A stretch of 64,000 nucleotides of DNA from a virus. The DNA is taken from the IMG/VR virus record IMGVR_UViG_3300004806_000016. One strand, 5' to 3'. Positions 48,124 to 52,886 of the stretch are shown in pieces (positions within the stretch are counted from its first letter, which is position 1; every line of letters starts with the position of its first letter). Below the pieces are notes generated by a model. That model searched no databases. It had not been told where the DNA came from and was given only the letters and a program-made list of their open reading frames with translations. Made by a program: the position numbers and the translations under genes.

Positions 48124-48158
48124 CTTATATAAATAGATTTAACATGAAAGGTTATTAT

Positions 48159-48353
48159 ATGACAAAGACTGCAAAAGTATTGAATGCATTCCTCTCGGGT
48201 AAAGAAATGACCGCGAAGCAAATCGCCGCACGTTATAACGTAGGCAATCCAGGTCGTGTAGTCCATTATCTCCGCGAGCAAGGGTATAGTATTAATCTTA
48301 ATACTCATGTAGATACCAAGGGTCGTGTAACAAATAAGTATAGCCTCGCATAA
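48159..48353 (+). CDS. Small winged-HTH DNA-binding protein
   Basis: MTAKQIAARYNV..P..VVH.LREQGY.I; TATAAATA at 48128-48135. Confidence 0.65.
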   Translation: MTKTAKVLNAFLSGKEMTAKQIAARYNVGNPGRVVHYLREQGYSINLNTHVDTKGRVTNKYSLA

Positions 48354-48378
48354 TCGATAGGAAAAAACCTAGAGATTT

Positions 48379-48410
48379 AAGCGGGGACCGAAAAATCCCC
48401 GCTTTTTTTT
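48379..48410 (+). terminator. Intrinsic terminator
   Basis: AAGCGGGGA/TCCCCGCTT stem followed by a T-run. Confidence 0.85.
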
Positions 48411-48414
48411 ATGC

Positions 48415-48443
48415 TTGACTTTTTACTGCTACTAAGTTATAAT
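48415..48443 (+). promoter_or_regulatory. Sigma70 promoter for the ncRNA/tRNA island
   Basis: TTGACT-N17-TATAAT directly after a terminator. Confidence 0.8.
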
Positions 48444-48497
48444 GTGTATAATGTGAAATTCGCTCTTTGACATCGTAAGAAAAAAGAAGATAACTTT

Positions 48498-48660
48498 GGT
48501 TATCTCTTTATAGATACACCGTTGATCTGGGACACGGTATGCGTGAGATTTTGTTTCACGTCGTGCAGTAAACTAAGATGCCTTTTGGGGACCTGGAGGG
48601 TCTCCGTATAAAGGCTACGTAGGTGAGAATCCTACACGGTGTATCTTGATAGAGATAATT
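48498..48660 (+). ncRNA. Unclassified structured RNA A (long closing stem, three hairpins, T-arm-like)
   Basis: TTATCTCT..AGATACACCGT pairs with ACGGTGTATCT..AGAGATAA; GTAGG-TGAGAAT-CCTAC arm. Confidence 0.65.
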
Positions 48661-48800
48661 GTTTCTTCACGGGTGCATCAGAGCCCGAAGCGTCTGCAGA
48701 ATAATTAACGCAGAGGTAGACTTCTCAGTCCGTATAATCAGCTGTAATCGACGGTGGTGACAGAAGTTAGACAGCTGGTGCATCCTTGAAGAAACAATTA
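48656..48800 (+). ncRNA. Unclassified structured RNA B (about 25-bp closing stem)
   Basis: TAATTGTTTCTTCA-C-GGGTGCATCAG pairs with CTGGTGCATCC-T-TGAAGAAACAATTA. Confidence 0.65.
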
Positions 48801-48801
48801 T

Positions 48802-48877
48802 TCCGTGGTAGCACAGCGGTAGTTGCATCTGACTGTTAATCAGAATGTCGTAGGTTCGATCCCTACCCACGGAGCCA
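48802..48877 (+). tRNA. tRNA-Asn(GTT)
   Basis: Cloverleaf with encoded CCA. Confidence 0.95.
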
Positions 48878-48980
48878 ATTTTATGACCTGGATACTGCGA
48901 ACTGAGCCGTGATTCAGACCAGTCGAAATGCCAGGCAGCTGGGTACTTTTAGGCGTGAAGCCCAGCAACTTTTTTGAGTT

Positions 48981-49090
48981 AGATGCGTTAGCGAGCCTTA
49001 ATGGGGTAATGGTGCCCAGCCTATACGGTGGCTCCCAGCACAGTGAGTCCAAAACACTGTGCTGGAAGGATTCGAGCGCCTTACGCATCT
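48981..49090 (+). ncRNA. tRNA-like structured RNA C
   Basis: AGATGCGT/ACGCATCT closing stem, D-loop-like TAATGGT hairpin, 11-bp arm, TTCGA-containing arm. Confidence 0.55.
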
Positions 49091-49150
49091 TGAGAGTCGC
49101 TGGATTACTATAGAGACGGTCTCCGCGGTCTGTCTCTTGTGCTTACCAGT

Positions 49151-49187
49151 AGAGGGTCGCCGCATCCCCTCTATAAACAAACGGCGA
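49151..49187 (+). ncRNA. preQ1-I riboswitch-like aptamer (H-type pseudoknot)
   Basis: AGAGGG-TCGCCGCATC-CCCTCT-ATAAACAAA-CGGCG. Confidence 0.65.
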
Positions 49188-49200
49188 GGAATTTAAGTTA

Positions 49201-49298
49201 TGTGGTGTATGGTGTAATGGTAGCACAGGAAGTCCGAGACGCCGTAAGGTGGAGTAGGCATCAAAAGGCCAAGAGCAGTTCGATTCTGCTACACTGCA
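49201..49298 (+). ncRNA. tRNA-like RNA D lacking a normal anticodon arm and CCA
   Basis: 8-bp TGTGGTGT/ACACTGCA stem, D-arm GTGT-AATGGTA-GCAC, T-arm AGCAG-TTCGATT-CTGCT. Confidence 0.65.
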
Positions 49299-49309
49299 CA
49301 ATAAGTTTA

Positions 49310-49425
49310 TCTTGATATGACCTGTGAGAGTACTCTGGTCGTATTTCGTGTAGTGTAGAGCTATGCGGGGAAACACTTCATGCTTGAGAGTCGGCATGGT
49401 AAATGGTGGGGTAAAAGTCCTAAGA
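49310..49425 (+). ncRNA. Unclassified multi-hairpin RNA E
   Basis: ATATGACC/GGTCGTAT, CGTGTAG/CTATGCG and CATGCT/GGCATG stems. Confidence 0.45.
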
Positions 49426-49442
49426 CGTTCTCGTAAGTTTTT

Positions 49443-49533
49443 AGGTGGGCTGCAGAGACGGTGGTTCTGCGACAGACTGTAAATCTGTTCCCTATGGGTA
49501 ACACTGGGGGTTCGAATCCCTCCCCACCTACCA
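49443..49533 (+). tRNA. tRNA-Tyr(GTA)
   Basis: Cloverleaf with long variable arm and CCA; atypical A1-U72 and C8. Confidence 0.9.
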
Positions 49534-49539
49534 AGTTTT

Positions 49540-49614
49540 GGATCGGTAGTTCAGCGGTAGAACGAGGGACTCTTAATCCCTGTGTCGTAGGTTCAATCCC
49601 TACCCGATTCACCA
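49540..49614 (+). tRNA. tRNA-Lys(CTT)
   Basis: Cloverleaf with CCA. Confidence 0.93.
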
Positions 49615-49710
49615 AGATGGTGTTGGTCGAGATCCCAAAATACTCGACAAGTCCTGTCCGTGATGGCGATGCGGCACCAGCTGCTACCATTAAGATGGGC
49701 ACCGAAATTC

Positions 49711-49786
49711 GGGGAATTAGCTCAGCTGGGAGAGCGTCTGATTTGCATTCAGAAGGTCAACGGTTCGATCCCGTTATTCTCCACCA
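49711..49786 (+). tRNA. tRNA-Ala(TGC)
   Basis: Cloverleaf, G3:U70, CCA. Confidence 0.96.
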
Positions 49787-49790
49787 TTTT

Positions 49791-49866
49791 GCCCGTATAG
49801 CTCATCAGGTAGAGCAGTTGATTTGTAATCATCAGGTGGTGGGTTCGAGTCCTGCTGCGGGCACCA
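49791..49866 (+). tRNA. tRNA-Thr(TGT)
   Basis: Cloverleaf with CCA. Confidence 0.94.
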
Positions 49867-49871
49867 TTAAT

Positions 49872-49948
49872 GGTCTGGTAGCTCAGTTGGTTAGAGTATC
49901 GGCCTGTCACGCCGAGGGTCGCGAGTTCAAGTCTCGTCCAGATCGCCA
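49872..49948 (+). tRNA. tRNA-Asp(GTC)
   Basis: Cloverleaf with CCA. Confidence 0.95.
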
Positions 49949-49951
49949 AAC

Positions 49952-49975
49952 AAAAAAGGGAGCATTTCTGCCCCC
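49952..49975 (-). terminator. Intrinsic terminator for the antisense acidic ORF
   Basis: Minus strand reads GGGGGCA GAAA TGCTCCC TTTTTT, nearly identical to the gp23 terminator. Confidence 0.75.
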
Positions 49976-50000
49976 AAGTTGTATCTAGCTTTTTTATAGA

Positions 50001-50252
50001 TTACTGAGAATCTGATTCTTCTTCAGTTTCTTCTTCGTCTGATTCATCTTCTAGGTCTTCATTTGAGAATACGTCAGCGTATTCATTTACAAATTCGAAA
50101 TCTGCGTCTTCTGAATCTTCTTCAGAGTCGTCATCCATGTCGCGATCAGCAACAAGGTCAGCAACTTCAACAGGAATAGCAGCAACTGTTACTTCTAAAG
50201 AAGTAAGACGTTCTAGGATAGCATTGAGAATATCGTTTGTATCATCAGCCAT
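50001..50252 (-). CDS. Small highly acidic protein
   Basis: 83 aa, SD AAAGGAG, TATAAGTA upstream (50297-50304), own terminator. Confidence 0.75.
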   Translation of the reverse strand: MADDTNDILNAILERLTSLEVTVAAIPVEVADLVADRDMDDDSEEDSEDADFEFVNEYADVFSNEDLEDESDEEETEEESDSQ

Positions 50253-50361
50253 GGTAGTCTCCTTTGATTGATCATCCTAAAGATCTCACTCGCGACTACT
50301 TATAAAACGAATATTAAAGATTTATTAAAAACGAAGAAAAACAAAAAAATAAATACTACGT

Positions 50362-50436
50362 GTCGGTGTGTTGTAACGGTAGCATGCGGGTCTCCAAAAC
50401 CTTGCGGTCAGAGTTCGAATCTTTGCACCCTCGCCA
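50362..50436 (+). tRNA. tRNA-Trp(CCA), degenerate acceptor stem
   Basis: CTCCAAA loop, T-arm, GCCA end; two acceptor-stem mismatches. Confidence 0.75.
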
Positions 50437-50442
50437 GTATTC

Positions 50443-50518
50443 GCTTAGATAGCTCAGTTGGTAGAGCATACGACTGAAAATCGTAGTGTCGTTGGTTCGA
50501 TTCCAACTCTGAGCACCA
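50443..50518 (+). tRNA. tRNA-Phe(GAA)
   Basis: Cloverleaf with CCA. Confidence 0.96.
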
Positions 50519-50523
50519 TCTAT

Positions 50524-50599
50524 GGGGTCATAGCAAAATGGCTAATGCACGGGACTGCAAATCCTTGAGGTTCCAGTTCGAATCTGGATGACCCCTCCA
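50524..50599 (+). tRNA. tRNA-Cys(GCA)
   Basis: Cloverleaf, U73, CCA. Confidence 0.93.
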
Positions 50600-50604
50600 A
50601 TTTT

Positions 50605-50681
50605 GGTCTCTTAGCTCAGCTGGATAGAGCATCTGACTACGAATCAGAAGGTCGGGCGTTCGACTCGCTCAGAGACTGCCA
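50605..50681 (+). tRNA. tRNA-Arg(ACG)
   Basis: Cloverleaf, A20, CCA. Confidence 0.95.
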
Positions 50682-50685
50682 TTTC

Positions 50686-50759
50686 GCGGAGTTCGTATAG
50701 TGATAATACCTCAGCCTTCCAAGCTGATGCGAGGGGTTTGATTCCCCTACTCCGCTCCA
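50686..50759 (+). tRNA. tRNA-Gly(TCC)
   Basis: Cloverleaf, U73, CCA; A19/U56 in place of G19/C56. Confidence 0.92.
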
Positions 50760-50764
50760 TTATT

Positions 50765-50841
50765 GCCCCTGTAGTCCAATTGGTAGAGGCGCTTGACTTA
50801 GAATCAAGATGTTGGGAGTTCGAGTCTCTCCAGGGGCACCA
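50765..50841 (+). tRNA. tRNA-Leu(TAG), short variable loop
   Basis: Cloverleaf, A73, CCA. Confidence 0.9.
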
Positions 50842-50847
50842 TTTTAC

Positions 50848-50921
50848 GCTGCTTTGGTGTAATGGTAACACACGAGTTTGTGGCACTCGTATCACTGGAT
50901 CGTAACCAGTAAGCAGTACCA
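50848..50921 (+). tRNA. tRNA-His(GTG), alphaproteobacterial type
   Basis: No encoded G-1; G1:U72, A73, CCA. Confidence 0.9.
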
Positions 50922-50925
50922 ATTC

Positions 50926-51000
50926 GCTAGTGGGACGGTTCGGCATCGTAGCATCCTCATAAGATGCCAAAAGCTGGTTCGAAACCAGCCATTAGCACCA
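50926..51000 (+). tRNA. tRNA(CAT), elongator Met or Ile2
   Basis: CTCATAA loop, T-arm, ACCA; atypical D-arm. Confidence 0.8.
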
Positions 51001-51008
51001 AATTTATT

Positions 51009-51083
51009 GTCGGGGTAGAGCAGAGGTAGCTTGTCAGTCTCATAAACTGAAGGTCGGTGGTTCGAGTCCATCCCCCGCAACCA
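51009..51083 (+). tRNA. tRNA-Met(CAT), initiator-like
   Basis: CGGGG.../CCCCGCAACCA end and unpaired position 1; lacks the three consecutive G-C anticodon-stem pairs. Confidence 0.8.
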
Positions 51084-51089
51084 GTTTCT

Positions 51090-51166
<77 letters not shown>

Positions 51167-51172
51167 AATTAT

Positions 51173-51262
51173 GGACAGGTGGCCGAGTGGTTGAAGGCTC
51201 TAGTCTTGAAAACTAGCGTGGGCGCAAGTCTACCGTGAGTTCGAATCTCACCCTGTCCGCCA
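51173..51262 (+). tRNA. tRNA-Ser(TGA)
   Basis: Long variable arm, GCCA. Confidence 0.95.
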
Positions 51263-51266
51263 TTAT

Positions 51267-51342
51267 GGGACGTTCGTCTATCGGTTGAGGATAACAGCCT
51301 TTCACGCTGTAGAGACGGGTTCGATTCCCGTACGTCCTACCA
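51267..51342 (+). tRNA. tRNA-Glu(TTC)
   Basis: Cloverleaf with CCA. Confidence 0.94.
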
Positions 51343-51346
51343 TATT

Positions 51347-51436
51347 GGTGAGTTGGCTGAGAGGCCGAAAGCACTCGTTTGCTAAATGAGCGAAGCAGAA
51401 ATGTTTCCGTGGGTTCGAATCCCACACTCACCGCCA
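51347..51436 (+). tRNA. tRNA-Ser(GCT)
   Basis: Long variable arm, GCCA. Confidence 0.95.
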
Positions 51437-51470
51437 ATATAAATACGGAGTAATGACTTATGGAGTGTTG

Positions 51471-52130
51471 ATGAAGCCCAGAATAGCGTTGTTCCAAAAC
51501 CATCCAGAATGTTCTAGACAATGCGTCAATGGAATGATTGAGGCTCTGAGAAATAATTACTCCATCAAAATAGTTTCAAATGAATTTTTCACAAAAGAAA
51601 ATCTAAAAGAATTTGATATTGTTGCATTTCCAGGAGGTATCGGTGATGCAGATACTTACTACGACTTTTTCAAACGTCGTCACGGAAATGCAGTTGCTGA
51701 CTTCGTTGATCGTGGTGGGCATTATCTTGGAATTTGCATGGGTGCCTATTGGGCTGGCCCTGATTTTTTTGATATCCTGGATAATGTCGTACCAGTTCAG
51801 TACATAACCAGAGAAACAGCAGATATACGCAGACCCTACGGGACAGTCGCGAAGGTAGATTGGTTAGGATCACAGCAGAATATGTTCTTCTATGATGGCT
51901 GTGCTTTAATAGGAGAAGAAAATGGACATGGAACATTATCTAATGTTTATGGGCGTTATGCTAATCACGATCCTATGGCTATCATTCAAGGACGTGTAGG
52001 TGTAATCGGTTGTCATCCCGAGTCAGAAAAGTTTTGGTATGACCAATACAAATATATAAAACATCATTGGCACAAAGGCGAGCATCATAAATTACTCCTT
52101 GAGTTTGTCAATAAGTTAATGCTCGGTTAG
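51471..52130 (+). CDS. Class I glutamine amidotransferase-like protein (BPL_N family)
   Basis: FPGG, YLGICMGAY, HPE catalytic triad; TATAAATA at 51438-51445. Confidence 0.8.
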   Translation: MKPRIALFQNHPECSRQCVNGMIEALRNNYSIKIVSNEFFTKENLKEFDIVAFPGGIGDADTYYDFFKRRHGNAVADFVDRGGHYLGICMGAYWAGPDFFDILDNVVPVQYITRETADIRRPYGTVAKVDWLGSQQNMFFYDGCALIGEENGHGTLSNVYGRYANHDPMAIIQGRVGVIGCHPESEKFWYDQYKYIKHHWHKGEHHKLLLEFVNKLMLG

Positions 52131-52195
52131 CTCAGAGGTAGAGCTCCTCCTTTACACGGAGATTGTCGGCGGTTCGATCCCGTCACCGAGTACCA
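52121..52195 (+). tRNA. tRNA-Val(TAC)
   Basis: Cloverleaf with CCA; overlaps the last 10 nt of the upstream CDS. Confidence 0.93.
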
Positions 52196-52297
52196 ATTGC
52201 ATATCGACGGGTATGCCTTATCGCGCTTGTTCGCCGCGATTCATAAATCATTAGGGTTAGCAGATGGCGCCATCTCCGCTAGCGGACTACCAATTAT

Positions 52298-52371
52298 TGT
52301 CCTGTAGCTCAACGGTAGAGCAGGCGATTGATAATCGTCCGATAGAAGTTCGATTCTTCTCGGGACAACCA
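52298..52371 (+). tRNA. tRNA-Ile(GAT)
   Basis: Cloverleaf, ACCA. Confidence 0.9.
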
Positions 52372-52372
52372 A

Positions 52373-52446
52373 GCTCTCTTAGTTAAATGGTATAACAGTT
52401 GATTAGTAATCATCTATTGGCAGTTCGATTCTGTCAGAGAGCACCA
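52373..52446 (+). tRNA. tRNA-Thr(AGT)
   Basis: Loop TTAGTAA; same anticodon stem as the Thr(TGT) gene; ACCA. Confidence 0.85.
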
Positions 52447-52451
52447 GAATT

Positions 52452-52525
52452 GCGGATGTAGCTTAATGGTAAAGCAGAGCGTTGCCAACGCTCCGACGAG
52501 GGTTCGATTCCCTTCATCCGCTCCA
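52452..52525 (+). tRNA. tRNA-Gly(GCC)
   Basis: Cloverleaf, U73, CCA. Confidence 0.95.
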
Positions 52526-52527
52526 GT

Positions 52528-52601
52528 TGGGGTATCGTCTAATGGTAGGACAGCGGATTTTGATTCCGTCAATCGTGGTTCGAGTCCATGTACCCCAGCC
52601 A
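52528..52601 (+). tRNA. tRNA-Gln(TTG)
   Basis: U1-A72, GCCA. Confidence 0.95.
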
Positions 52602-52620
52602 ACAAACCTAAATAAACTAC

Positions 52621-52649
52621 TTGACTTTTTAATCCAGATAAGTTACAAT
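52621..52649 (+). promoter_or_regulatory. Sigma70 promoter upstream of the arfA-like ORF
   Basis: TTGACT-N17-TACAAT. Confidence 0.75.
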
Positions 52650-52674
52650 TACAAAATAAAGAAAGGAGACTGCG

Positions 52675-52803
52675 ATGAAAAATACTTTTAAGACACGTTG
52701 CGTATACGCTAAAGCATTGCAGTCTCGACTGTTTGCTAACCGTATCGTCGCACCCAAAAAGGGCAAAGGTTCATACAAACGCAGCAAAAAAATAGCTGCG
52801 TAA
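52675..52803 (+). CDS. arfA: ArfA-like alternative ribosome-rescue factor (42 aa, not in the ORF track)
   Basis: MKNTFKTRCVYAKALQSRLFANRIVAPKKGKGSYKRSKKIAA; SD AAGGAG; LF..R....KKGKGSYxR motif. Confidence 0.75.
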   Translation: MKNTFKTRCVYAKALQSRLFANRIVAPKKGKGSYKRSKKIAA

Positions 52804-52811
52804 TGTTTAGA

Positions 52812-52886
52812 GGACCCATAGCACAATGGTGGTGCAAACGACTTTTAATCGGGAGGCTGCTGGTTCGAGTCCAGCTGGGTCTACCA
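52812..52886 (+). tRNA. tRNA-Lys(TTT)
   Basis: Cloverleaf, ACCA; two mismatches at the top of the anticodon stem. Confidence 0.85.

What the first reader, a model, noticed from the sequence alone, without database searches (positions are those of the whole stretch)
48415..49710. Island of unexplained structured RNAs heading the tRNA operon
Seen: after a terminator and a strong sigma70 promoter, about 1 kb has no credible ORF, is more GC-rich than its flanks, and folds into at least six discrete domains interleaved with tRNAs. Three domains have a T-arm-like hairpin next to a closing stem but no anticodon or CCA, and TGAGA(A/G) loops recur. Known: T4 has stable RNAs of unknown function in its tRNA cluster, and large RNAs such as GOLLD occur beside phage tRNAs. 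Inference: a co-transcribed set of tRNA mimics and aptamers, possibly decoys for tRNA-targeting defences, or parts of one large RNA.
Basis: partly seen in the sequence, partly recalled or inferred. Interest (0 to 1): 0.85.

Follow-up and report, generated by a model that had tools for sequence, protein, structure and literature searches.

The report
Modular structured RNAs heading phage tRNA operon
The stretch in front of and between the first tRNA genes of this uncultured T4-like phage encodes several separate, conserved, folded RNAs that match no catalogued family, including one predicted to stick to copies of itself and one tRNA look-alike with no anticodon arm; what they do is unknown.

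Summary
A terminator and an 11/12 sigma-70 promoter precede about 1.3 kb that has no credible ORF, is GC-rich and is strongly structured.

It is not one large RNA. It is a mosaic of independent modules that recur, shuffled, in related IMG/VR phage contigs. None matches Rfam 15 except as a weak tRNA.

- **A and B** belong to a cassette system. At least 10 unrelated cargos are closed by the same roughly 22-bp "handle" helix, which has a conserved pyrimidine·U mismatch. Cassettes form tandem arrays that usually end 1-8 nt before a tRNA.
- **B** (29 distinct sequences) has strong covariation and two loops that are always perfect palindromes although their sequence varies (9 and 3 types). This is the signature of kissing-loop self-association.
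- **C3** is a covariation-supported H-type pseudoknot. It resembles preQ1-I but fails that family's tests.
- **D** is a tRNA-shaped RNA. An invariant two-hairpin module of about 45 nt replaces the anticodon arm, and no CCA is encoded. It always occupies a tRNA slot in large phage tRNA arrays.
- **C2 and F** are conserved but thinly sampled. C1 and E are weak.

The most likely mechanism is inferred, not shown: host tRNA-processing enzymes release stable passenger RNAs. Function is unknown.

The parts
48144..48353 (+). 69-aa winged-helix gene (Pfam HTH_39) just upstream. It is frequently but not always syntenic with the RNA array.
   Evidence: Pfam PF14090, E = 3e-6; PHROG of unknown function. 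In loci found by the B motif alone, 15 of 26 have this gene ending 156-359 nt upstream of B, 5 have it about 1 kb downstream, and 6 lack it.
48379..48404 (+). Intrinsic terminator of the upstream gene
   Evidence: 9-bp stem followed by a T run
48415..48443 (+). Sigma-70 promoter TTGACT-17-TATAAT of the tRNA operon
   Evidence: Matches 11 of 12 positions. Equivalent promoters sit at the same place in relatives.
48461..48475 (+). Conserved 5' leader motif CGCUCUUUGACAUCG
   Evidence: CGCUGUUUGACAU is conserved near the transcript start in many relatives. It occurs once in the window. Function unknown.
48486..48507 (+). "Anti-handle" hairpin GAAGAUAAC-UUUG-GUUAUCUC. It sequesters the 5' arm of the first handle and so competes with handle closure.
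   Evidence: In relatives the first 5' arm is nearly always preceded by its complement plus a GAAA, GUAA, GCAA or UUCG tetraloop.
48498..48661 (+). Module A: handle-closed four-way junction. Hairpin 3 (GUAGG-UGAGAAU-CCUAC) sits next to the closing stem.
   Evidence: z = -7.9 together with B. Homologues in L001 and L003. 49 predicted pairs, 4 of them compensatory, in 3 sequences.
48655..48801 (+). Module B: handle-closed three-way junction RNA, ending 1 nt before tRNA-Asn
   Evidence: 29 distinct homologues. 98.4% of cells paired against 37-48% in slid controls, and 13 of 33 pairs compensatory. z = -6.5.
48693..48700 (+). B hairpin-2 palindrome UCUGCAGA
   Evidence: Same offset in 16 of 16 long-type sequences: UCUGCAGA, UGCGCGCA, UGUGCACA or GUGCAC.
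48739..48744 (+). B apical-loop palindrome CAGCUG
   Evidence: A perfect 6-8-nt palindrome at this place in 29 of 29 sequences, in 9 types.
48802..48877 (+). tRNA-Asn(GUU), first true tRNA
   Evidence: ARAGORN and Rfam, 61.9 bits
48878..48977 (+). C1: spacer with no demonstrated structure or conservation
   Evidence: z = -1.3; no nhmmer hits
48981..49090 (+). C2: junction RNA closed by an 8-bp stem, with three inner hairpins
   Evidence: z = -4.4. One homologue, 89% identical, in L369, where it follows D. No informative covariation.
49099..49186 (+). C3: stem GCUGG/CCAGU enclosing a hairpin, then an H-type pseudoknot. P1 is 49151-56 with 49167-72, P2 is 49158-62 with 49182-86, and L3 is the A-rich AUAAACAAA.
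   Evidence: 6 sequences. 97.5% paired against 31-58% in slid controls. 11 of 21 pairs compensatory, including 4 of 5 in P2.
49202..49298 (+). D: tRNA-shaped RNA. It has an acceptor stem, an invariant D arm and T loop, an invariant X domain in place of the anticodon arm, and no CCA.
   Evidence: tRNA covariance model scores 24.3 bits, below the gathering score of 29, with a 41-nt insert. 10 aligned homologues have covarying acceptor and T stems. It sits in tRNA slots.
49299..49442 (+). E: spacer before tRNA-Tyr, only partly conserved
   Evidence: z = -0.7. Partial similarity to L003 and L001.
49443..49614 (+). tRNA-Tyr(GUA) and tRNA-Lys(CUU)
49619..49703 (+). F: leader of tRNA-Ala. The stem GGUG/CACC encloses two hairpins and an invariant AAGUCCU.
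   Evidence: Conserved in L001, L003, L103, L149 and L121. z = -1.8.

Best explanation
The island is the promoter-proximal part of a polycistronic tRNA precursor of an uncultured T4-like phage. Besides tRNAs it carries a set of independent, conserved "passenger" RNAs.

Shown:
1. Modules A and B are members of a cassette system. Unrelated structured cargos are each closed by the same roughly 22-bp handle helix, which has a conserved pyrimidine·U mismatch at pair 11. Selection acts on the tRNA-sense strand.
2. Cassettes are strung head to tail. Most end a few nucleotides before a tRNA 5' end or before the next cassette.
3. B has a covariation-supported three-way-junction fold and two loops that stay palindromic while their sequence changes.
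4. C3 is an H-type pseudoknot sitting directly before a tRNA or tRNA-like RNA.
5. D is a tRNA-shaped RNA with an invariant non-anticodon module and no CCA. It sits in tRNA slots.

Inferred:
- Host RNase P, together with tRNA 3'-end processing, cuts the precursor at each tRNA or tRNA-like unit.
- This leaves each passenger with its 3' end buried in a long helix (the handle) or capped by a pseudoknot with an A-rich strand. The arrangement is the same logic as the MALAT1 triple helix followed by mascRNA.
- The passengers therefore accumulate as stable small RNAs early in infection.
- B then pairs with copies of itself through its palindromic loops, forming dimers or, with two loops, chains or rings.
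- D presents its invariant module on a tRNA scaffold, most likely to bind a protein.

The cellular targets and the benefit to the phage are unknown.
For: Setting: the promoter, the terminator and the absence of ORFs are confirmed.

Handle:
- A covariance model built on B also hits handles enclosing other cargos.
- 48 distinct tRNA-sense modules show 66 G·U against 12 A·C, and U·U or C·U at pair 11 in 44 of 48.
- There are at least 10 cargo classes and arrays of up to 4 cassettes.
- 30 of 48 modules are followed within 8 nt or less by a tRNA or the next module. The window's B ends 1 nt before tRNA-Asn.

B:
- 98.4% of cells are paired against 37-48% in slid controls. The covariation score is 0.338 against 0.092 or less, and 0 of 500 shuffles reach it.
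- The apical palindrome is present in 29 of 29 sequences, in 9 types. All three half-site pairs change on both sides and there are no violations.
- A second palindrome is present in 16 of 16 long-type sequences.

C3: 97.5% paired, 11 of 21 pairs compensatory, and P2 covaries.

D:
- The acceptor and T stems covary at every position but one.
- None of the 10 aligned sequences has a CCA tail, whereas the window's true tRNAs encode CCA (sequence).
- It is spaced like a tRNA inside arrays of about 12 or more tRNAs.

Precedents:
- T4's roughly 1.75-kb tRNA precursor also yields species I and II RNAs (PMC2330249; annotation).
- ROOL and GOLLD lie near phage tRNA islands and form RNA-only homo-oligomers (PMC12286853).
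Against: - There are no expression or end-mapping data.
- Processing by RNase P is inferred only from position.
- 15 of 48 handle modules are not followed closely by a recognisable tRNA.
- The conserved anti-handle hairpin hints at an alternative fold or a regulatory switch that this model does not explain.
- Palindromes could in principle be DNA sites for dimeric proteins.
- Short-type B has only an invariant GAUC in hairpin 2.
- C1 and E show no constraint, and C2 has one homologue with a pair-breaking change.
- All alignments come from one clade of metagenomic contigs, many found by synteny or by motif, so sampling is biased.
Confidence: 0.6

Rival explanations
1. The handle cassettes are small mobile DNA elements (MITE- or Correia-like). 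They have conserved terminal inverted repeats and a variable interior, have inserted into the tRNA operon leader, and have no RNA-level function.
For: - The arms are conserved while the interiors are unrelated.
- Cassettes are tandem and shuffled among relatives.
- The covariance model also hits the minus strand weakly, as expected for inverted repeats.
- Other follow-ups in this scan found palindromic insertion elements with conserved arms in other bacteria.
Against: - The arms show a strand bias of 66 G·U to 12 A·C.
- In the window the covariance model hits only B, and its minus-strand hit there scores 40 bits against 165.
- In the loci inspected, cassettes lie in the tRNA sense, at tRNA operon heads or directly before tRNAs. 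Modules that passed only in the antisense orientation were set aside when orienting by tRNA direction.
- Cargos themselves show covariation and invariant loops.
- The mismatch position is conserved.
Confidence: 0.1
2. The island is a cis-acting regulatory leader (a riboswitch or attenuator). It senses a metabolite such as preQ1 or a protein and controls transcription or processing of the downstream tRNAs.
For: - The anti-handle hairpin and the handle are mutually exclusive.
Against: - There is no Rfam hit for any riboswitch, even at E <= 10 on 221 nt.
- The nucleotide equivalent to the ligand-pairing C is C, A, A, G, G, G in the six sequences.
- No + strand terminator or expression platform was found in or after the island.
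- Cassettes and C3 also occur inside arrays, before various tRNAs.
Confidence: 0.1
3. D, and the handle cassettes with tRNA-like cargo in relatives, are Y-RNA-like (YrlA-type) RNAs. They would bind a host Ro60/Rsr protein and redirect RNA decay.
For: - D combines a tRNA-like D/T-arm elbow with an invariant GUCCGA. This resembles the GGUCCGA contacted by Ro60 (PMC4201824).
- YrlA RNAs are known in phages.
- Cassettes in L107, L113, L117 and L165 have a long closing stem plus a tRNA-like cargo.
Against: - The Rfam YrlA model gives no hit on D. Its only weak hits, at most 21 bits against a gathering score of 69, overlap true tRNAs.
- No TROVE/Ro60 gene is present in a complete 197-kb D-bearing relative or in four partial ones, nor in the six largest window ORFs of about 440-570 aa.
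- D's topology is permuted relative to YrlA.
- The shared motif is only 6 nt long.
Confidence: 0.1
4. The non-tRNA stretches are decaying pseudo-tRNAs and neutral processing spacers. Their apparent structure is inherited from tRNA ancestry and high GC.
For: - C1 and E show no significant fold and little conservation.
- D scores as a weak tRNA.
- Relatives carry odd tRNA-like calls, for example L001 9206-9274.
Against: - D's non-tRNA core is invariant across sequences whose stems have diverged.
- B and C3 have no tRNA-like layout, and both show extensive compensatory change.
- The palindromes are maintained through double substitutions.
Confidence: 0.05

Closest known systems
T4 species I and II stable RNAs (rnaC, rnaD) of the T4 tRNA gene cluster
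   Same: - They are non-tRNA stable RNAs co-transcribed and co-processed with phage tRNAs in a T4-type phage (PMC2330249; annotation).
- Their function is still unknown.
- rnaC also has a T-arm (CCGGG-UUCGAAU-CCCGG) next to its closing stem.
   Different: - There is no sequence or model similarity. The B/handle covariance model and the profiles of A, C3, D and F give no hit on the T4 tRNA region.
- The T4 RNAs lie at the 3' end of the cluster.
- They have no shared handle, no arrays and no palindromic loops.
ROOL and GOLLD RNAs (large ornate RNAs near phage tRNA islands that form RNA-only nanocages); also the manA motif
   Same: - They are phage-encoded, lie next to tRNA islands and have no known protein partner.
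- They self-assemble through intermolecular loop contacts (PMC12286853; bioRxiv 10.64898/2026.07.01.735769).
- B's two self-complementary loops predict comparable self-association.
   Different: - There is no Rfam match.
- B is only about 145 nt and has a simple three-way junction.
- Self-association is predicted from palindrome covariation, not observed.
- Palindromic loops give two-fold contacts (dimers or chains), not the heterotypic contacts seen in the cages.
HIV-1 dimerisation initiation site and other palindromic kissing loops
   Same: A 6-nt self-complementary sequence sits in a hairpin loop flanked by unpaired A and U residues. Different palindromes occur in different lineages while self-complementarity is kept.
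   Different: - The comparison rests on my own knowledge, not on a tool result.
- The biology is unrelated.
- B's loops are larger (14-19 nt), and there are two of them per molecule.
MALAT1/MEN-beta 3' end: a triple helix followed by the tRNA-like mascRNA, cut by RNase P
   Same: A structured 3'-end cap with an A-rich strand lies immediately upstream of a tRNA-like RNA that lacks an encoded CCA (PMC8457004, PMC4824109). This is the same order as C3 followed by D.
   Different: - The known example is eukaryotic and nuclear.
- C3 is an H-type pseudoknot, not a U·A-U ENE triple helix.
- Cleavage and stabilisation have not been tested here.
Class I preQ1 riboswitch aptamer (Rfam RF00522)
   Same: It has the same size and H-type topology. 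P1 AGAGGG/CCCUCU and the A-rich L3 AUAAACAAA are close to the Bacillus subtilis queC aptamer as I recall it.
   Different: - There is no covariance-model hit at E <= 10.
- The ligand-pairing C is not conserved.
- There is no expression platform.
- It sits between tRNAs rather than before a gene.
Bacterial Y RNAs (YrlA) and engineered tRNA scaffolds
   Same: A tRNA-like elbow is combined with a non-tRNA functional module. YrlA is handled by tRNA enzymes (PMC4201824). Engineered tRNA scaffolds replace the anticodon arm with a cargo, as D does (PMC3753655; only its abstract was seen).
   Different: - There is no YrlA model hit.
- No Ro60 gene was found in relatives.
- D keeps an open acceptor stem, so its topology is permuted relative to YrlA.

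Membership tests
tRNA (RF00005) | Covariance-model score at or above the gathering score of 29 bits, and an anticodon arm with a 7-nt loop | tested here: not met
   D scores 24.3 bits, with a 41-nt insert where the 15-nt anticodon arm should be. ARAGORN does not call it. The hairpin-2 loop is 6-9 nt long in homologues.
tRNA (RF00005) | Acceptor stem, D arm and T arm with a GUUCGAUUC-type T loop | tested here: met
   D has a 7-bp acceptor stem and a 5-bp T stem with compensatory changes at nearly every pair. Its D arm and T loop are invariant.
tRNA (RF00005) | 3' CCA, which the true tRNAs of this cluster encode | tested here: not met
   The D tails are ACAA, CUAA, AUAA, GACC, CAAA, UUAU and UCAA. 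None is CCA. The neighbouring tRNAs read ...CCA.
preQ1-I riboswitch (RF00522) | Match to the Rfam covariance model | tested here: not met
   No hit at E <= 10 on 1.7 kb or on 221 nt.
preQ1-I riboswitch (RF00522) | H-type pseudoknot with an A-rich L3 | tested here: met
   P1 and P2 are supported by covariation in 6 sequences. The AUAAA(C)AAA tail is conserved.
preQ1-I riboswitch (RF00522) | Conserved cytidine at the end of L2 that pairs with the ligand (a feature recalled from the literature) | tested here: not met
   The last nucleotide before the P1 3' strand is C, A, A, G, G, G in the six sequences.
GOLLD / ROOL / other Rfam large RNAs | Match to the Rfam covariance model | tested here: not met
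   Only tRNA hits in the window at gathering score. Nothing relevant at E <= 10 in 48300-50000.
YrlA / Y RNA (RF02553) | Covariance-model match, and a Ro60 (TROVE) gene nearby or in the genome | tested here: not met
   The only hits score at most 21 bits and overlap true tRNAs. No TROVE gene is present in 5 D-bearing contigs, one of which is a 100%-complete 197-kb genome. The host genome is unknown.
T4 species I/II RNA | Sequence or structure similarity to T4 rnaC or rnaD | tested here: not met
   The B/handle model R1 gives no hit on the T4 tRNA region L152. nhmmer profiles of A, C3, D and F give no hit there either.
T4 species I/II RNA | A non-tRNA RNA co-transcribed within a T4-type tRNA cluster | tested here: inconclusive
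   The position and the single promoter fit. Transcription and stability could not be tested.
Handle-cassette RNAs (family proposed here) | A closing helix of about 22 bp with the consensus arms UUGUYUCUUCA.../...UGWAGARACAA and a pyrimidine·U mismatch at pair 11 | tested here: met
   B meets it fully. A has a diverged version, GGUUAUCUCUUUAUAGAUAC/GUAUCUUGAUAGAGAUAAU, which aligns with the consensus handles of its L001 and L003 homologues.

The most novel reading that the evidence does not exclude
The handle cassettes are a phage system for producing and displaying interchangeable structured RNAs from the tRNA operon. On this reading, cargo B, with two orthogonal palindromic kissing loops, polymerises into RNA-only dimers, chains or closed assemblies in the infected cell. 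It would be a small relative in function, though not in ancestry, of the ROOL and GOLLD nanocages found beside phage tRNA islands. The tRNA-shaped D RNA would use a tRNA scaffold to present an invariant module that captures a host protein.
Probability: 0.3. Interest if true: 0.9.

Novelty: new variant of a known kind. Interest (0 to 1): 0.74.

Why it matters
Phage tRNA islands are known to harbour enigmatic RNAs: T4 species I and II, unexplained for 50 years, and ROOL and GOLLD, recently shown to be self-assembling cages. This locus adds at least four uncatalogued RNA families supported by covariation, plus a cassette architecture I did not find described: one conserved helix closing many different cargos, strung in arrays in front of tRNAs.

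Two features make long-standing questions directly testable.
- A 145-nt RNA has loops that stay palindromic through many double substitutions. This predicts RNA-RNA self-association that a native gel or cryo-EM can check within days.
- A natural "tRNA scaffold" RNA has an invariant cargo that can be used as bait to find its partner.

If the processing model holds, it would show phages using the host tRNA maturation machinery as a general production line for stable small RNAs.

Tried and rejected
- **Cultured relatives.** DNA searches of the island against 50,697 GenBank phages, in near and distant modes, found only tRNA-level matches. The two flanking proteins found nothing. The DNA polymerase is at most 49% identical to T4-like cyanophages.
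- **Window genome.** No genome is held for the window.
- **Rfam.** Nothing beyond tRNAs. Atu_At1 hits appear only in relatives, on the opposite strand.
- **Antisense targets.** Reverse complements of the invariant single-stranded motifs of B, D, A and the leader have no convincing match in the 64-kb window.
- **RNase P-like reading of D.** GGAAGUCCGAG resembles the CR-I motif. I rejected this by inspection: it is one nucleotide short of the GNAANNUCNGNG register, has no P4 partner strand and has no Rfam RNase P hit.
- **Hammerhead-like core in B.** The reverse complement of CAUCAG resembles one. I rejected it because the core is incomplete and there is no Rfam hit.
- **RNAalifold on the MAFFT alignment of D.** It mis-predicted a pairing between the invariant core and the T loop because of register shifts. 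I replaced it with anchored pair counts.
- **TGAGA(A/G) recurrence.** The enrichment is only mild.
- **Palindromic loops in other cargos.** Absent from the 160-nt cargo class found in relatives. UGAUCA loops occur in one other class, but with too few sequences to test.
- **Published catalogue.** The supplement of the 10,006-candidate viral RNA catalogue (PMC10690425) is not held, so I cannot exclude that some of these motifs are listed there without a function.
Full report
**1. Setting**

The window carries T4-type genes: portal gp20, major capsid gp23, terminase, sheath, UvsW, the clamp loader and a family-B DNA polymerase. It has no close cultured relative. The polymerase is at most 49% identical to T4-like cyanophage polymerases. 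The island and its flanking genes match nothing in 50,697 GenBank phage records beyond tRNA-level similarity. No genome is held for the window. Many related contigs exist in IMG/VR.

**2. The observation**

- A terminator (48379-48404) and a TTGACT-17-TATAAT promoter (48415-48443, 11 of 12 positions) precede the island.
- ARAGORN finds 24 tRNAs from 48802 to 52886. Rfam adds a weak tRNA (anticodon CCA by my reading, so Trp) at 50362-50433.
- Inside 48415-49710 lie tRNA-Asn, tRNA-Tyr and tRNA-Lys. The rest has only short ORFs.
- GC is 0.41-0.51 against 0.34-0.40 outside.
- The leader 48450-48801 folds far better than shuffles (z = -7.9). B alone gives -6.5 and C2 gives -4.4. C1, D, E and F are unremarkable by energy alone.
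- Rfam 15 reports only tRNAs, plus a sub-threshold tRNA hit on D at 24.3 bits.

**3. Homologues show a mosaic, not one RNA**

blastn and nhmmer against the fetched loci find each domain separately:

| Domain | Where found |
|---|---|
| A | L001, L003 (L004, L162 and L175 are fetches of two contigs with the same sequence) |
| B | about 40 loci |
| C3 | 6 distinct sequences |
| D | 11 |
| F | about 6 |
| C2 | one (L369) |
| C1 | none |
| E | partly, in L003 and L001 |

Order and content differ between contigs. L001 has A, a different cargo, then tRNA-Asn. L103 has a 160-nt cargo, then B, with D about 190 nt downstream of B. L212 has tRNA-Pro, C3, D and then, about 110 nt on, tRNA-Trp. L369 has tRNA-Tyr, D, C2. 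This rules out a single large RNA.

**4. The handle cassettes (A and B)**

A covariance model built on B also hit, at 25-48 bits, stems that enclose unrelated interiors. These include domain A of L003 and two elements inside the L165 array.

Inspection shows a shared closing helix: 5' GGUUGUYUCUUCAY... paired with ...UUGWAGARACAAC. I collected 48 distinct modules and oriented them by the neighbouring tRNAs:
- Pairs 1-10 are nearly invariant.
- Pair 11 is U·U or C·U in 44 of 48.
- Pairs 12-22 covary.
- G·U outnumbers A·C 66 to 12, so the constraint acts on the tRNA-sense RNA.

At least 10 cargo classes share this handle. They include B, A, a 160-nt class that itself shows compensatory changes, tRNA-like cargos (L107, L113, L117, L165) and a class with a T arm plus a CUGAUCA loop.

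Cassettes form tandem arrays of up to four, as in L136 7732-8246. 30 of 48 modules are followed within 8 nt or less by a tRNA 5' end (23) or by the next cassette (7). In the window, B ends 1 nt before tRNA-Asn.

The first 5' arm of an array is nearly always preceded by its own complement plus a stable tetraloop (GAAA, GUAA, GCAA or UUCG). In the window this is GAAGAUAAC-UUUG-GUUAUCUC, 48486-48507. This hairpin is mutually exclusive with the handle, and I cannot explain it.

T4's own tRNA region has no such element.

A first-reader note on another genome of this scan describes [quoted passage not shown] (e1-5618341). It agrees with my result. I did not examine that genome.

**5. Module B**

29 distinct sequences are known. 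The consensus is a three-way junction made of the handle, hairpin 2 and a long arm with an internal loop.

On the 26-sequence alignment:
- 98.4% of cells are paired, against 37-48% when the partners are slid.
- 13 of 33 pairs show changes on both sides.
- The covariation score is 0.338, against 0.092 or less for the slid controls.
- 0 of 500 shuffles reach the observed values.

The new point is the loops. The apical loop (window 48739-48744, CAGCUG) holds a perfect palindrome at the same place in 29 of 29 sequences. Nine different sequences occur: CAGCUG, CAGCGCUG, CGGCCG, UGGCCA, UCGCGA, UCGCGCGA, GGUACC, GGGCCC and UUCGAA. Each of the three half-site pairs takes three or four Watson-Crick pair types, and there is no violation. 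The flanking loop nucleotides are not complementary to each other. A palindrome of at least 6 nt occurs somewhere in a shuffled loop in about 25% of trials. At one fixed position the chance is about 1/64 per independent lineage, and at least five lineages are independent.

Hairpin 2 of the long form carries a second palindrome at a fixed offset in 16 of 16 sequences: UCUGCAGA, UGCGCGCA, UGUGCACA or GUGCAC. Two of its pair positions change on both sides. The short form has an invariant GAUC there.

A 6-8-nt palindrome cannot fold on itself. A protein-binding DNA site would be expected to keep its sequence rather than its symmetry. Intermolecular loop-loop pairing between identical RNAs is therefore the best reading. 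With two such loops, chains or rings are possible. This is an inference and no assembly was observed.

**6. Module C3**

Six sequences support three elements:
- a 5-bp stem, GCUGG/CCAGU;
- a hairpin enclosed by that stem;
- an H-type pseudoknot, with P1 at 49151-56/49167-72 and P2 at 49158-62/49182-86.

Overall 97.5% of cells are paired against 31-58% in slid controls. 11 of 21 pairs are compensatory, and 4 of 5 in P2.

Against that, no Rfam hit appears even at E <= 10 on 221 nt, and the position of the ligand-pairing C reads C, A, A, G, G, G. I do not file it as a preQ1 riboswitch.

In four of the six sequences C3 ends within about 15 nt of a tRNA or of D: tRNA-Tyr in L089, and D in the window, L003 and L212. 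What follows it in L133 and L149 was not determined. An RNase P cut at that downstream 5' end would leave the pseudoknot with its A-rich strand at the very 3' end of the upstream fragment. This is the same order as the MALAT1 triple helix followed by mascRNA (PMC8457004, PMC4824109).

**7. Module D**

In the 10 aligned homologues, about 30 nt of the core are invariant: GUGUAAUGGUAGCACAGGAAGUCCGAGAC. A 3-4-bp hairpin follows, usually GNRA-capped, and it covaries (GCC/GGU, AUC/GAU, ACC/GGU). Next comes the invariant GGAGUAGGC, followed by a 3-4-bp hairpin whose loop is 6-9 nt. Last come a T arm and an acceptor stem in which nearly every pair shows compensatory change.

No member encodes CCA, whereas the window's true tRNAs do. 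D members sit in tRNA slots of arrays of about 12 or more tRNAs. For example, in L221 the order is tRNA-Ala 1754-1829, D 1840-1922, tRNA-Met 1935-. All 20 amino acids are already served by the window's tRNAs.

A 19-nt invariant word occurs only once in 185,579 species genomes, on an 8-kb contig of a lake MAG that is probably a mis-binned phage.

D shares GUCCGA with the Ro60-binding GGUCCGA of Y RNAs (PMC4201824). However, no TROVE gene is present in a complete D-bearing genome, and the YrlA model does not hit D.

D has no anticodon loop, so it cannot be a decoy for anticodon nucleases. It could still engage enzymes that read the tRNA elbow or the acceptor stem.

**8. Other parts**

- A has only three distinct sequences and 4 compensatory pairs. 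Its helices tolerate insertions and deletions.
- F precedes tRNA-Ala in three contigs and has an invariant AAGUCCU.
- C2 is well folded. Its single homologue offers no supporting covariation and has one pair-breaking change.
- C1 and E may be plain spacers.
- The 69-aa winged-helix gene upstream (HTH_39) is often syntenic with B, but not always.

**9. Mechanism and comparison**

Shown: conservation, folds, strand-specific constraint, palindromic loops, and placement next to tRNA 5' ends.

Inferred: co-transcription from the 48415 promoter; release by RNase P and tRNA 3'-end processing; end protection by the handle or the pseudoknot; self-association of B; and protein binding by D.

The nearest known things are:
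- T4 species I and II RNAs, made from the same precursor as the tRNAs (PMC2330249);
- ROOL and GOLLD, which lie beside phage tRNA islands and self-assemble (PMC12286853);
- short self-assembling RNAs such as manA (bioRxiv 10.64898/2026.07.01.735769).

None is related in sequence or fold. A 2023 catalogue of 10,006 candidate viral RNAs drawn from IMG/VR (PMC10690425) might list some of these motifs. Its tables are not held, so I could not check.

**10. Limits**

- The host is unknown.
- The alignments come from one metagenomic clade and were gathered partly by synteny or by motif.
- Several pair counts were made by my own anchored scripts.

Noticed in passing
L003:9266-9372 (-), L104:9875-9982 (-): Rfam Atu_At1 (a Rhizobiales sRNA) scores above its gathering score (70.8 and 64.2 bits against 60). 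The hits lie on the strand opposite to the tRNAs, inside the tRNA clusters of two relatives. There is no such hit in the window.
   Followed up: no
L003:1268-1439, L001:8957-9129, L081:4011-4181, L084:4734-4905, L110:10385-10558, L103:2718-2882: A cargo class of about 160 nt, closed by the same handle, takes B's place directly before tRNA-Asn in the window's closest relatives. It shows visible compensatory changes and conserved GGACGC and ACGGCUGCAACCGACUCC blocks. This is another uncatalogued RNA family.
   Followed up: partly
L107:9743-9882, L113:3539-3682, L117:10344-10487, L165:3993-4128: These handle cassettes have a tRNA-like cargo (D arm plus T arm) whose T arm abuts the 3' strand of the handle. 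The handle therefore acts as a very long acceptor stem.
   Followed up: partly
window 50362-50433: ARAGORN misses a tRNA here that Rfam finds at only 33.4 bits. By my reading the anticodon is CCA (Trp). tRNA-Tyr (49444-49529) is similarly weak at 33.3 bits. Several tRNAs of this cluster look non-canonical.
   Followed up: no
It is not conserved in the C3 homologues.
   Followed up: partly
window 49227-49240 (D) and 49650-49656 (F): The word AAGUCC lies inside invariant single-stranded stretches of two otherwise unrelated modules: GGAAGUCCGAG in D and CAAGUCCUG in F.
   Followed up: no
L246:4636-4710, L081:4391-4459, L001:9206-9274: ARAGORN calls suppressor-like or odd tRNAs in relatives: anticodon CUA ("Pyl"), anticodon UCA ("SeC"), and a tRNA with a 2-nt anticodon.
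   Followed up: no
L249 (CAILUI010000185.1, 8.3 kb): The only hit of D's invariant 19-mer among 185,579 species genomes is a short contig binned into a Victivallales MAG from a lake. It may be a mis-binned phage contig or a weak host hint.
   Followed up: no
window 48461-48475: The motif CGCUNUUUGACAU is conserved close to the predicted transcript start of the tRNA operon in many relatives. It contains TTGACA but has no consistently spaced -10 element.
   Followed up: partly
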